Source: Octopus sinensis
Lineage: Eukaryota
Reading direction: 5' to 3'
Assembly (NCBI RefSeq): GCF_006345805.1
Contig: NC_043000.1
Span: forward strand, 115,816,001-115,880,000
Length of the DNA stretch: 64,000 nt
The stretch's first letter is position 1; each line of letters starts with the position of its first letter. A program made the position numbers and the translations under genes. This document shows, in pieces, positions 8,797 to 62,953 of this stretch. Below the pieces are notes generated by a model. That model was not told the DNA's origin. It did no database searches and worked only from the letters and a program-made list of their open reading frames with translations.

Positions 8797-8877
8797 TTTC
8801 GACATATGTTTCGAAGGCTGCATATTCCTAATTCCGAAGGAATATGGAGTACATTATGCAGATTTCTCATCAGGAAA
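8797..8877 (-). ncRNA. Type I hammerhead ribozyme, family A
   Basis: Reverse complement is tttc-CTGATGA-long stem II-GAAA-catatg-TC-gaaa. Confidence 0.8.
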
Positions 8878-8966
8878 GGCAAGGAACTTATGTCGACATC
8901 AAAATGCACAAAAACTTTTAGCTGAAAGTTTTTTGTGCATTTTGATGTCGACATAAGTTCCTTGCC

Positions 8967-9047
8967 TTTCCTGATGAGAAATCTGCATAATGTACTCCTT
9001 ATTCCTTCGGAATTAGGAATATGCAGCCTTCGAAACATATGTCGAAA
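8967..9047 (+). ncRNA. Type I hammerhead ribozyme, family A
   Basis: tttc CTGATGA g..ctgcata..tatgcag..c GAAA catatg TC gaaa. Confidence 0.8.
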
Positions 9048-14365: not shown

Positions 14366-14399
<34 letters not shown>

Positions 14400-14551
14400 G
14401 TAAATATAAGAGAGTTACCACTATGTGGTCGACTCTAGCACTAAAAATAGATCCGCTAGGTTTCAGCCACGAAGAATTGTTTCCGATGAAAGTTAGCACG
14501 ACTATTAGCGTAAACGAACAGGGCAAATAAAGAATAACAAAAGTGCAGATT

Positions 14552-14630
14552 AATTCAGGACAATTGTTTCGTTATTAATAAATTATGCAATTTTACTCAC
14601 ACAACATATCCGTATCTCCTCAGCTGAATT
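14552..14630 (-). ncRNA. Type I hammerhead ribozyme, array unit 1
   Basis: aattcag-CTGAGGA-gata..taac-GAAA-caattg-TC-ctgaatt, with a 7 bp stem I. Confidence 0.85.
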
Positions 14631-15044
14631 TGTCTAGAATACAATTTACTCAACCGCATGCCAGATTTTACCATAACAATAAACACACATGCGGTTCAGT
14701 CGATTGCATTCACCGTTATAATTCAAGTGCCCCCGCCAAAATCACGGAAACAGATACTACATCAAAAATTAAATGCAGCATAATTACAATCAACTAATAA
14801 GGGTGAGAAAAGTGGATACTAATTAATAGTACCATCTTTTAACACCAAGTGGCTTAGTGCATAAAAGACCAGGAATATAATAAATTTTATACGTAAATAT
14901 AAGAGAGTTACCACTATGTGGTCGACTCTAGCACTAAAAATAGATCCGCTAGGTTTCAGCCACGAAGAATTGTTTCCGATGAAAGTTAGCACGACTATTA
15001 GCGTAAACGAACAGGGCAAATAAAGAATAACAAAAGTGCAGATT

Positions 15045-15123
15045 AATTCAGGACAATTGTTTCGTTATTAATAAATTATGCAATTTTACTCACACAACAT
15101 ATCCGTATCTCCTCAGCTGAATT
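15045..15123 (-). ncRNA. Type I hammerhead ribozyme, array unit 2
   Basis: Same as unit 1. Confidence 0.85.
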
Positions 15124-15537
15124 TGTCTAGAATACAATTTACTCAACCGCATGCCAGATTTTACCATAACAATAAACACACATGCGGTTCAGTCGATTGC
15201 ATTCACCGTTATAATTCAAGTGCCCCCGCCAAAATCACGGAAACAGATACTACATCAAAAATTAAATGCAGCATAATTACAATCAACTAATAAGGGTGAG
15301 AAAAGTGGATACTAATTAATAGTACCATCTTTTAACACCAAGTGGCTTAGTGCATAAAAAACCAGGAATATAATAAATTTTATACGTAAATATAAGAGAG
15401 TTACCACTATGTGGTCGACTCTAGCACTAAAAATAGATCCGCTAGGTTTCAGCCACGAAGAATTGTTTCCGATGAAAGTTAGCACGACTATTAGCGTAAA
15501 CGAACAGGGCAAAGAAAGAATAACAAAAGTGCAGATT

Positions 15538-15616
15538 AATTCAGGACAATTGTTTCGATATTAATAAATTATGCAATTTTACTCACACAACATATCCGTA
15601 TCTCCTCAGCTGAATT
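15538..15616 (-). ncRNA. Type I hammerhead ribozyme, array unit 3
   Basis: Same as unit 1, with a perfect gata/tatc stem II base. Confidence 0.88.
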
Positions 15617-15795
15617 TGTCTAGAATACAATTTACTCAACCGCATGCCAAATTTTACCATAATGATAAACACACATGCGGTTCAGTCGATTGCATTCACC
15701 GTTATAATTCAAGTGCCCCCGCCAGAGCCCGCCAAAATTCACGGAAACAGATACTACATCAAAAATTAAATGCAGCATAATTACAATCAACTAGT

Positions 15796-15856
<61 letters not shown>

Positions 15857-37782: not shown

Positions 37783-38041
37783 GGGCATATGGCGTAGTGG
37801 TTAAGAGCGCGGGCTACTAACCCCAAGATTTCGAGTTCGATTCTAGGCATTGACCTAAATAATAATACTAAAAATAATAACAACAACAATAACATCGAAA
37901 AATACCTTAGGAATGAGAACCTAGGTTCGAAATTTCCCCAAGACACCTGATGAAGGCTGGAGGGTATATCAGCCGAAATGTTGTGTTAACAACAAACAAG
38001 ATGAGGACAAATATCCGTCAAATGTAAATAATGTAAATAAT
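37783..38041 (+). mobile_element. tRNA-headed SINE with (AAT)n linker and hammerhead-containing tail
   Basis: A box tggcgtagtgg, B box gagttcgattc, HHR at 37942-37987, tail (aatgtaaat)n. Confidence 0.8.
37942..37987 (+). ncRNA. Minimal hammerhead ribozyme in SINE tail
   Basis: gacac-CTGATGA-a-ggctg..cagcc-GAAA-tg-TT-gtgtt. Confidence 0.7.
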
Positions 38042-38999
38042 GAACCTCCACCCTGAATGGAACGACGCTCAGTCGTAGGGTTACTCATTTAGAGCTGTGT
38101 GAATCGGAGCAACATGAAATGAAGTGTTTTGCTCAAGATAACAATGAACCGCCCAGTTCGGGGATCGAAACCACGATCTTGCGTGCAGCACCTCTAACCA
38201 CTAAGTGACGGGGCTTCTGTGTGGAGTACTATGATAAATTAATTCACCCACACACTTCCCGAATATTCAAGGCTTAATGCTTAAAGTAGAAAGCATGATA
38301 TCCTACTAATATCCATTATAAACTGGACAAATATTTTCGTGGTGATCACATATTTTAGGGTTGCTTTAGTAATAAATCTGCGAAATGCATTTCAGAGACA
38401 TTAAGTACGTGCCTAAAATGGCGTTTTCCGTTAAGACTAGAATATCTACCCCAATTTCCTGGAGTAGAATTCATCTGAGAGGTTTAGACTCGGTTTCACT
38501 TTCTTCATTATACTGTATCTCTATTATTGTGAACGTTCACGAAATCAGGATATGTTGCAAAGAATTTTCATTTCAACTTATATCAGGTATTCTTTTCTGG
38601 GAAGAAAGAATACACTTTGGGCGGTCATTTTGTTTAAATGTTCAGCGTTTCTATTATGTAAGTAGCTGTTTGTTGAATTGAATAATGCTAGCCAACAAAA
38701 TATTAATCCATTATATAGTGTTACACCTACTAGAAGCAATGAATGATTACCTCTTTAGTTTCTATACAGTGTGATGGAAACTGCATCTGTCAGAGTCGAC
38801 GAAGAAGTAAGATGGCCGCAAGATAAGATAATGACGCCCTGCTAGAAATAGTAAACAGATGTTACTCAAAATCGTATACTACTACATTAAACAAAAATAG
38901 ATTTATAATATATTGGGCAAGCTAGTCTATGATAAGTAAAAAACGGGAATACCATTGCTGGAATACACGTACATATTAAATATATGTATGTGTGCATGT

Positions 39000-46915: not shown

Positions 46916-47139
46916 CCAACGAATGAAATAATAATGTACTGATATTAAGTACTGTTCTTTTATTGTATTATTAGCTGTGGCAATCTTCGGACACCCGTTT
47001 CTTGTGTTCCGTCAGTTACAATAACACCAGTAATCAACTGGTGTATATTTTCAGTTCTATATTTAAAAGATGAGGAATTATGTACGTTATTTACATTATT
47101 TACATTCGACGGATATTTGTCCTCATCTTGTTTGTTGTC

Positions 47140-47185
47140 AACACAACGTTTCGGCTGATATACCCTCCAGCCTTCTTCAGGTGTC
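47140..47185 (-). ncRNA. Minimal hammerhead ribozyme
   Basis: Reverse complement is gacac-CTGAAGA-a-ggctg..cagcc-GAAA-cg-TT-gtgtt. Confidence 0.75.
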
Positions 47186-47353
47186 TTGGGGAAATATGCC
47201 CATGGGCATATGGCGTTGTGGTTAAGAGTGCCGGCCACTAACGCCAAGATTCCGAGTTCGATTCCAAGCAGTGACCTGAACAAGAATAATAATAATAATA
47301 ATAACATCGAAAAATACCTTAGGAATGAGAACCCAGGTTCGAAATTTCCGCAA

Positions 47354-47399
47354 GACACCTGAAGAAGGCTGGAGGGTATATCAACCGAAACGTTGTGTT
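47354..47399 (+). ncRNA. Minimal hammerhead ribozyme
   Basis: gacac-CTGAAGA-a-ggctg..caacc-GAAA-cg-TT-gtgtt. Confidence 0.72.
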
Positions 47400-47639
47400 A
47401 ACAACAAAGAAGATGAGGACAAATATCCGTCAAATGTAAATAATGTAAATGGTGTATATTTTATTATTCGTACTTATTTGCCGAACTTGGAAGAGGGAAA
47501 AGCATCGTGAATCTGCGTAGGATTTGATCTCAGAAAGTAAATATACATACCCAAATTTCTCGTGATATTTTATTTGCTTCTCTATCGATTCGAACCTGTA
47601 CTTGTCAGACATATGTCTCATTATCGATTCAATGTACTC

Positions 47640-47850
47640 ACTTTTTTACTCTTTTACTTGTTTCAGTCATTTGACTGCGGCCATACTGGATCACCGCCTT
47701 TAGTCGAGCAATTCGACCCCAGGACTTATTCTTTGTAAGCGTAGTACTTACTCTATCGCTCTCTTTTGCCGAGCCGCTAAGTGACGGGGACGTAAACACA
47801 CCAGCATCGGTTGTCAAGCGATATTGGGGGGGGGGCAAAGACACACACAC

Positions 47851-62784: not shown

Positions 62785-62953
62785 TGTCTGGGGAGAGTCA
62801 TTCACTTTTAGTGCCATAGTTTTTAACACACTCATCGGTTCGATTTCCACTCATTTACTTATATATTTTTTCTAGAAAAAATAGATGAATAGCAATCGAA
62901 CCGGTGAGTGTGTTAAATACTATGGCACTAAAAGTGATGACTCTCCCCAGACA
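62785..62953. repeat. Imperfect ~170 bp palindrome
   Basis: tgtctggggagagtca..cttttagtgccatagt / actatggcactaaaag..tgactctccccagaca. Confidence 0.85.

What the first reader, a model, noticed from the sequence alone, without database searches (positions are those of the whole stretch)
37783..38041. A tRNA-headed (Pol III) SINE that carries its own hammerhead ribozyme
Seen: a tRNA-like A/B-box head, an (AAT)n linker, and a tail with a canonical-core minimal HHR (CTGATGA/CTGAAGA, ggctg/cagcc stem II, GAAA, gacac/gtgtt stem I). The same head-linker-tail architecture recurs independently at 47204-47449, so it behaves as a family. Established: minimal HHRs are typical of Penelope pLTRs and retrozymes, and HHR-bearing SINE-like repeats are known in schistosomes (Sm-alpha), but most SINEs lack ribozymes. 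Inference: this is a Pol III-transcribed SINE-retrozyme hybrid whose self-cleavage could define its 3' end or yield a processed or circular RNA. I do not know of it being described in cephalopods.
Basis: partly seen in the sequence, partly recalled or inferred. Interest (0 to 1): 0.85.

Follow-up and report, generated by a model that had tools for sequence, protein, structure and literature searches.

The report
Penelope retrotransposon with tRNA-promoter terminal repeat
This short repeat is the end-piece of a longer jumping gene (a Penelope-type retrotransposon); it carries a tRNA-like start and a hammerhead ribozyme motif, and the tRNA-like start likely works as a captured promoter whose RNAs would explain the thousands of short, SINE-like copies.

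Summary
The motifs are real, but the unit is not a free-standing SINE-retrozyme. It is the pseudo-LTR (pLTR) of an abundant Penelope/Poseidon-type element. The tRNA-like head lies 29 nt after the endonuclease ORF's stop (25 of 30 loci), and the ribozyme tail is read in frame as the start of that ORF. The hammerhead sets neither end: 69 of 70 copies run past the cut, and 5' ends show no excess there.

Two things are unusual. (1) 5' ends pile up at the tRNA head: 21 of 26 copies that reach it stop there, against about 2 expected. With intact A/B boxes and an upstream TATA-like word, this likely marks a Pol III start inside a Penelope pLTR. A hairpin at the same place is the main rival. (2) Head-to-head insertions pair one long with one short 3' end in 46 of 49 cases, never long-long, which suggests each target strand primes at a different internal RT start.

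Short copies share variants with ORF-linked pLTRs, so they are probably dead-end products of PLE masters. Nine literature searches listed no tRNA-headed PLE; Repbase, Dfam and SINEBase could not be searched. Pol III transcription and cleavage are untested.

The parts
37783..37856 (+). tRNA-derived head of the pLTR, copy 1 (isotype unresolved; no longer folds as a tRNA)
   Evidence: 38-47 identical positions of 73 to 33 genomic tRNAs, best scores Arg(TCT), Ala, Cys, Thr; ARAGORN negative
37790..37800 (+). Pol III A box, at tRNA positions 8-18
   Evidence: Sequence; family majority; box consensus recalled
37835..37843 (+). Pol III B box
   Evidence: Sequence; family majority; box consensus recalled
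37857..37892 (+). (AAT/AAC)n linker of variable length; in other copies often split by later insertions
37893..38043 (+). Tail of copy 1: start of the PLE ORF (in-frame ATG at 37913), ending at the short 3' end; no target duplication found
   Evidence: best duplication 4 nt
37942..37987 (+). Minimal type I hammerhead without stem III loop; predicted cut after 37982; C15.2>T in this copy
47039..47051 (.). Left 13-bp target-site duplication of the inverted insertion
47052..47195 (-). Inverted arm: tail positions 40-183 with the long 3' end and a hammerhead whose stems I and II and palindrome are intact (47140-47185)
47194..47211 (.). 18-bp palindrome at the head-to-head junction, centred just before the head start
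   Evidence: Sequence
47204..47449 (+). Forward arm (copy 2): head, linker and tail with the short 3' end; hammerhead 47354-47399 has a stem II mismatch
47450..47462 (.). Right 13-bp target-site duplication

Best explanation
The repeat is the pseudo-LTR of a Penelope/Poseidon-type retrotransposon, with a tRNA-derived head 29 nt after the ORF's stop and a hammerhead motif inside the ORF's first codons, and the head likely acts as an RNA polymerase III promoter whose RNAs would be the templates of most short copies. Shown: the architecture, the pile-up of 5' ends at the head, two 3' ends about 36 nt apart, target duplications of 9-14 bp, and long/short pairing of inverted arms. Inferred: in tandem master loci Pol III starts at or up to about 6 nt before the head and runs through the linker and hammerhead into the ORF. 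The element's RT-endonuclease nicks target DNA and starts reverse transcription at one of two internal sites in the ORF's first 55 codons, then runs off the RNA's 5' end at the head. When both target strands prime, one uses the distal and one the proximal site, and the two cDNAs join head to head. The hammerhead is not cut in the templates that insert; it likely cleaves only as a dimer or with protein help. Short copies end at the RT start, so they likely lack the protein-binding RNA beyond it and cannot move again.
For: PLE identity: head directly after the endonuclease ORF in 25 of 30 loci; tail continues in frame into the ORF in L048, L089 and L011, and that N-terminus is 59% identical to an 806-aa RT protein; RVT_1 above cut-off in 2 of 5 natural ORF pieces; endonuclease piece nearest to GIY-YIG clusters at 0.96-0.97 (family on 12-27% of members); near-full-length copies L171, L180, L181. 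5' pile-up: 21 of 26 core-anchored copies that reach the head start stop there, against 0.007 per nt inside the head (binomial P 1e-18); 25 of 30 head-anchored copies end within -7..+1; 86 of 1081 exact head starts keep the exact 9 upstream bases. Many heads are joined at +1 to arbitrary points of an inverted arm (L192, L202, L211, L212, L214, L215, L218) or both arms meet at +1 (L208, L219), as run-off from a fixed RNA end would give (read by hand). A TATA-like word starts at -34, 28 nt before the purine at -6 (Pol III spacing recalled). No run of four T on the majority sense strand of ORF, head or tail. Long/short pairing 46 of 49, chi-square P 6e-10. The anole Poseidon element has two internal RT starts, cuts and extends both strands, needs RNA beyond the starts and does not need its hammerhead (PMC11167929).
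Against: No direct evidence of Pol III transcription. A hairpin spans -14..+10 at the same place (RNA -9.7, cDNA -5.6 kcal/mol), and several junctions are palindromes with a 2-nt loop that fit snap-back priming. A and B boxes are no better conserved than the rest of the head in ORF-anchored copies (4.1% and 3.9% against 4.2% mismatch). The T-run absence is weak: P about 0.02 against base shuffles, about 0.06 against synonymous-codon shuffles, and G4 runs are also absent. No copy with a head-starting 5' pLTR, whole ORF and 3' pLTR was seen in 44 long stretches; every ORF copy seen is broken or 5'-truncated, so no master was identified. An uncapped Pol III RNA would need another route to be translated. 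The dead-end claim is carried over from the anole element and was not tested.
Confidence: 0.62

Rival explanations
1. Same Penelope pLTR, but the tRNA head is a passive fossil insertion. Templates are Pol II or read-through RNAs, and 5' ends pile up because the hairpin at -14..+10 makes the nascent cDNA fold back or the RT leave the template.
For: The hairpin is real and is the strongest of those folded. Palindromic junctions with a 2-nt loop are common, a few ends fall at the hairpin base near -14 (L033, L046), and palindromes at PLE inverted junctions have been read as self-priming (PMC3846280 passages). Known PLE promoters are internal and LINE-like (PMC2377424 abstract). Boxes are not extra-conserved.
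Against: A stall would be expected at the 3' foot of the stem (about +10), not at +1 to -7 (inference). Blunt joins at +1 to unrelated points are frequent. A weaker hairpin in the tail (RNA -7.1, cDNA -1.7 kcal/mol in copy L002) shows no pile-up: 4 of 68 by hand count, and 0.003-0.005 per nt. That control is imperfect because the hairpin is weaker.
Confidence: 0.28
2. An independent, self-propagating tRNA SINE that borrowed the PLE pLTR as its 3' end and multiplies from its own copies.
For: About four fifths of copies that reach the head begin there and carry no ORF; SINE-like layout; short copies look slightly less diverged (4.6% against 6.1% in the tail).
Against: The head is also part of the coding element (25 of 30). 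Non-CpG variants are shared about equally by 125 short and 56 ORF-linked units (tail 59, 128, 130; head 64). The one exception, head 49 (P 0.005), matches the window copy used as query and is likely a sampling effect. The lower divergence is confounded by how short copies were picked. Short copies end at the RT start sites.
Confidence: 0.07
3. One reading: a SINE-retrozyme in which hammerhead cleavage sets the RNA end or yields a circular RNA that is the template.
For: The majority hammerhead has all core bases, the unpaired base before stem II, a G-C closing pair and a palindromic stem III; the only common non-CpG core change is at the tolerant position 7 (22 of 147). Animal retrozymes are proposed to derive from PLE pLTRs (bioRxiv 10.64898/2026.07.22.740005).
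Against: 69 of 70 copies read through the cut, and 0 of 154 tails are followed by a head; 3 loci show tail-tail repeats. No 5' excess at the cut. Core mismatch 4.0% against 4.4% elsewhere in the tail; 13 of 71 ORF-anchored tails match a full descriptor.
Confidence: 0.03

Closest known systems
Penelope/Poseidon clade PLEs, e.g. PAc (Poseidon_Ac) of the green anole (PMC11167929; read parts 1-2 of 4)
   Same: Single RT plus C-terminal GIY-YIG ORF, pLTRs, hammerhead overlapping the ORF start, two 3' ends 30-40 nt apart inside the ORF, uncut RNA as template
   Different: No tRNA-derived head or Pol III promoter is mentioned in the parts read; here most copies are short and start at the head, and arm pairing is quantified (46 of 49 long/short)
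Minimal hammerheads of metazoan PLEs (PMC4209133; read parts 1-2 of 4)
   Same: No stem III loop, palindromic 15.2-16.2, unpaired base before stem II, G10.1-C11.1, mostly dispersed single motifs from truncated PLEs, pairs on opposite strands 100-700 bp apart
   Different: Stem II is 5-6 bp here against 7-8 in the schistosome PLE motifs; the tRNA head is not described in the parts read
Adineta vaga Penelope families (PMC3846280; passages)
   Same: Inverted pLTRs, 8-10 bp target duplications, optional 31-bp tail on one inverted pLTR, palindrome at the pLTR 5' end
   Different: Their pLTR has TATA/Inr-like motifs; the word tRNA does not occur in the main text
Sm-alpha / Sj-alpha SINE-like elements of schistosomes (PMC2770079; passages)
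   Same: tRNA-related SINE-like repeat that carries a hammerhead, tens of thousands of copies
   Different: Those carry canonical hammerheads (per PMC4209133); no link to an autonomous element's pLTR appears in the passages read; here the unit is part of a coding PLE
Non-LTR retrozymes (bioRxiv 10.64898/2026.07.22.740005, parts 1-2 of 5; PMC7761336, passages)
   Same: Type I hammerhead, non-coding appearance, pLTR origin
   Different: Defined by tandem hammerhead-to-hammerhead units and circular RNA; not seen here

Membership tests
EN+ Penelope-like element, Penelope/Poseidon clade | Single ORF with RT followed by a C-terminal GIY-YIG endonuclease | tested here: met
   RVT_1 above cut-off; endonuclease piece has no Pfam hit of its own but is nearest to GIY-YIG clusters, and 2 of 14 relatives hit PF01541 below cut-off; order on L171/L181
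EN+ Penelope-like element, Penelope/Poseidon clade | [quoted passage not shown] | tested here: met
   Read from alignment A1 against the definition in PMC8557442 passages
EN+ Penelope-like element, Penelope/Poseidon clade | pLTR sequence on both sides of the ORF; partial tandems and inverted 5' pLTRs | tested here: met
   L171, L180 have tail on both sides; L161 is a partial tandem; 53 inverted insertions
EN+ Penelope-like element, Penelope/Poseidon clade | Optional 30-40 nt 3' tail and variable target duplications | tested here: met
   3' ends cluster at tail about 137-159 and 180-185; duplications of 9 bp or more in 25 of 53 against 0 of 300 random pairs
EN+ Penelope-like element, Penelope/Poseidon clade | RT falls in the Penelope/Poseidon clade in a tree with named references | not testable with these tools
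   No named PLE reference sequences were available; the clade call rests on domain layout
tRNA-derived SINE | tRNA-related head with A and B boxes | tested here: met
   isotype unresolved
tRNA-derived SINE | Copies start at the head | tested here: met
   21 of 26; 25 of 30
tRNA-derived SINE | Transcribed by Pol III | not testable with these tools
   Standard RNA-seq gave no start peak and both directions equally
tRNA-derived SINE | A family separate from its autonomous partner, sharing only a 3' end | tested here: not met
   The whole unit is part of the coding element; variants are shared
Non-LTR retrozyme | Tandem units, each with a hammerhead; ends set by the cut | tested here: not met
Minimal PLE hammerhead ribozyme | Core bases, stems I and II, palindromic loopless stem III | tested here: met
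   Majority sequence and per-position counts; pairing in window copies
Minimal PLE hammerhead ribozyme | Self-cleavage as a dimer or with protein help | not testable with these tools
   Needs an assay; the two-strand minimum-energy folds did not show the stem III dimer and say nothing either way

The most novel reading that the evidence does not exclude
An autonomous Penelope-like retrotransposon has captured a tRNA-type Pol III promoter into its pLTR and runs its whole cycle on it: Pol III reads through a 2.3-kb ORF free of T4 terminators into the next pLTR, so one locus makes both the coding element and a SINE-like swarm, and each target strand primes at its own RT start.
Probability: 0.3. 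Interest if true: 0.85.

Novelty: new variant of a known kind. Interest (0 to 1): 0.6.

Why it matters
It shows a route by which a SINE-like family can arise inside an autonomous element rather than as a separate parasite of it, and it would be a Pol III promoter in a retrotransposon class whose known promoters are Pol II-like. The near-strict long/short pairing of inverted arms gives a testable explanation for two old PLE oddities together, the inverted pLTRs and the optional tail: both target strands prime, each at a different internal RT start. In practice, such repeats are easily annotated as tRNA SINEs when they are Penelope pLTRs. The hammerhead itself is ordinary for a PLE.

Tried and rejected
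A DNA search with the tail alone returned nothing because common words are skipped; the exact pattern was used instead.

Expression: no RNA holder listed. Reads of three 2026 RNA runs of coded organism B and contigs of one run of organism A were laid on L171. Both directions were covered about equally and no begin/end peak appeared at the head or the cut. That reference lacks part of the hammerhead and the libraries are standard RNA-seq, so this does not test Pol III starts or cleavage. Loose ends at two places 36 nt apart (980 and 1019 reads in X21) only echo the two genomic 3' ends.

Selection on the hammerhead core or A/B boxes among copies: none seen in ORF-anchored copies; the low B-box mismatch in the pooled set comes from query bias. 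5' pile-up at the hammerhead cut, suggested by a few loci: rejected. T-run absence as proof of Pol III read-through: too weak. tRNA isotype: unresolved, from 36 genes called in 37 stretches that cover only some isotypes. RNase P trimming at +1: unlikely because the head does not fold as a tRNA (inference).

DNA of close relatives (P0002-P0008), to see whether they also have the head: not obtained; the one metagenome scan gave a single 45% match with no informative boxes. PDB sequence search gave only weak RT hits. Earlier-finding look-ups were empty.

Paper searches listed no paper on a tRNA- or Pol III-headed PLE pLTR or on twin priming in PLEs. PMC5785218 is not held. Ohshima and Okada 1994 on octopus tRNA SINEs was seen only as a reference and may cover the head. 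Supplements (including repeat libraries of PMC13282606 and the bioRxiv preprint), Repbase, Dfam and SINEBase were not seen and may already hold this family.

Full report
OBSERVATION. The window holds the head-linker-tail unit at 37783-~38043 and 47204-47449, plus an inverted tail at 47052-47195. The head has A and B boxes at tRNA positions but is not called as a tRNA. It matches 33 distinct genomic tRNAs at 38-47 of 73 positions, best Arg(TCT), Ala, Cys and Thr, so it is tRNA-derived with the isotype open. The hammerhead is the minimal type: stem I 5 bp, core, one unpaired base, stem II 5-6 bp, and a loopless palindromic stem III. Copy 2 has a stem II mismatch and copy 1 a changed palindrome. 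The genome (2.72 Gb) holds 2021 exact 37-nt cores and 1081 exact 26-nt head starts, with reversed controls at 0. Scaling by the share of ORF-anchored copies that match exactly (6 of 71; 4 of 39) gives very roughly 24,000 hammerhead-spanning tails and 10,000 full head starts.

WHAT IT IS. Several copies share upstream sequence that translates to the end of an endonuclease. A protein search with it gave 4221 candidates, 150 scored. In the best 30 loci the head follows the ORF directly in 25; 2 have the tail with the head deleted, 1 has a short head piece, and 2 have neither. The stop codon ends 29 nt before the head (majority of 20 loci). At the other end the tail is an open frame of 55 codons from an ATG upstream of the hammerhead, and it continues into the ORF in L048, L089 and L011. 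That N-terminus is 59% identical to an 806-aa RT protein from an unnamed assembly. RT pieces pass the RVT_1 cut-off (2 of 5 pieces). The endonuclease has no Pfam hit of its own; its nearest language-model clusters carry GIY-YIG on 12-27% of members, 2 of 14 relatives hit PF01541 below cut-off, and it shows the two cysteines between the GIY and YIG positions with no extra linker finger (definition from PMC8557442 passages). L171, L180 and L181 are near full length. So the unit is the pLTR of a Penelope/Poseidon-type element. All ORF copies seen are broken or 5'-truncated; the longest stop-free stretch in one copy is 551 codons.

3' ENDS AND INSERTION. In 70 core-anchored copies (the first 70 of 2021 exact matches, all on contig C1), 3' ends fall in two groups, near tail 137-159 and 180-185. 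69 of 70 run at least 30 nt past the predicted cut. This matches the anole Poseidon element, where RT starts at two internal ORF sites that bound the optional tail, both strands are cut and extended, and hammerhead mutants still insert (PMC11167929, parts 1-2 of 4). Among 53 head-to-head insertions (52 from the 100 pattern-anchored loci, plus the window's own), 46 pair a long with a short end, 3 are short-short, none long-long, and 4 have an end outside both classes and were left out of the test. Independent choice predicts 24 mixed of 49 (P 6e-10). Target duplications of 9-14 bp were found in 25 of 53 against 0 of 300 random pairs; a few are low-complexity. An optional tail on one inverted pLTR was described in rotifer elements (PMC3846280 passages). 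The simplest reading, inferred, is twin priming with a different RT start for each strand.

5' ENDS. Of the 70 copies, 15 end in the tail, 12 in the linker with no head seen within 1.5 kb, 17 inside the head, 21 at head positions 1-5, and 5 continue into the ORF (BLAST ends, a few borderline or misassigned, such as L079). So 21 of 26 that reach the head start stop there, against about 8% expected from the rate inside the head (P 1e-18). In 30 head-anchored copies (the first 30 of 1081), 25 end within -7..+1, 1 keeps 14-20 upstream bases and 4 run into the ORF. Genome-wide, 86 of 1081 keep the exact 9 upstream bases, an undercount because of mutation. There is no such excess at the hammerhead cut (8 of 300 arms at risk; 342 of 355 arms used, 13 with internal deletions dropped).

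POL III OR HAIRPIN. For a Pol III start: intact boxes in the majority sequence, a TATA-like word at -34 and a purine at -6, 13 nt before the A box (spacing rules recalled), blunt joins at +1 to unrelated points, and no T4 run on the sense strand. Against, or for the hairpin rival: a stem-loop over -14..+10, palindromic junctions, no extra conservation of the boxes in ORF-anchored copies, weak T-run statistics (P about 0.02 and 0.06, with G4 also absent), and no head-to-end full-length copy in 44 long stretches. Of 30 loci anchored on the ORF's N-terminus, 4 have a head upstream: 2 start at it, 1 starts inside it, and 1 continues into an upstream endonuclease end. RNA-seq could not decide. I put the Pol III reading at about 0.6.

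NOT A SEPARATE SINE OR RETROZYME. 125 short and 56 ORF-linked units share their non-CpG variants, apart from one position explained by query bias. No tail is followed by a head in tandem (0 of 154), and 3 loci show tail-tail repeats. Hammerhead cores decay like their neighbours (4.0% against 4.4%), as expected for dead insertions from a few masters. The one common core variant is at the tolerant position 7, which is compatible with constraint in masters, though the same bases also code for protein.

WHAT IS KNOWN. Minimal hammerheads in PLE pLTRs, mostly as dispersed single motifs with little or no monomer activity, are known (PMC4209133, parts 1-2 of 4). So are hammerhead-bearing tRNA-related SINE-like repeats in schistosomes (PMC2770079 passages), non-autonomous PLE derivatives (PMC8557442 passages) and a pLTR origin of retrozymes (bioRxiv 10.64898/2026.07.22.740005, parts 1-2 of 5; PMC7761336 passages). 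A 2026 octopus repeat annotation lists Penelope and SINE families without the words ribozyme or hammerhead (PMC13282606, part 1 of 3 and passages). Also seen: PMC6962438 and PMC4758252 (passages) and PMC2377424 (abstract). Nine searches listed no tRNA-headed PLE pLTR. Repeat databases, supplements and most subscription papers were not searchable.

VERDICT. A new variant of a known kind: a Penelope/Poseidon-type element whose pLTR begins with a tRNA-derived, probably Pol III, head and sheds SINE-like copies. The ribozyme is standard for the class and does not define the ends. Interest 0.6.

Noticed in passing
window 14380-15800, - strand: About 2.9 tandem units of 493 nt between (TA)n tracts, each with an Rfam type I hammerhead hit (35.9, 33.1, 33.1 bits; cut-off 34). 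The unit has 2124 candidate places in the genome, many as partial tandems or inverted pairs. It looks like a true non-LTR retrozyme or second pLTR-derived family, unrelated in sequence to the finding.
   Followed up: partly
L033, L057, L080, L090, L203, L210, L216 (linker): The (AAT)n linker is often split by later insertions of another repeated element, which explains part of the apparently headless copies. The label Dong/R4-like LINE is recalled, not tested.
   Followed up: partly
L142-L170 (about 12 of 30 N-terminus-anchored loci): Internally deleted forms: part of a pLTR, 200-460 nt of the ORF start, then a jump to the 3' pLTR. The clustering of jump sites is biased by the query.
   Followed up: no
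window about 38090-38210, - strand: A second tRNA-like repeat with A- and B-box-like words lies just downstream of copy 1 in the opposite direction (sequence).
   Followed up: no
window about 47660-47800: Piece of another very common repeat that also appears in many fetched loci.
   Followed up: no
window 8857-8989 and 62787-62951: Long inverted repeats, MITE-like; their Rfam microRNA hits are below cut-off and reflect hairpin shape only.
   Followed up: no
proteins P0002, P0003, P0015, P0025: Close relatives of the element's protein (59-68% identity where compared) occur in unnamed ENA and Logan assemblies; host and flanking DNA unknown.
   Followed up: partly
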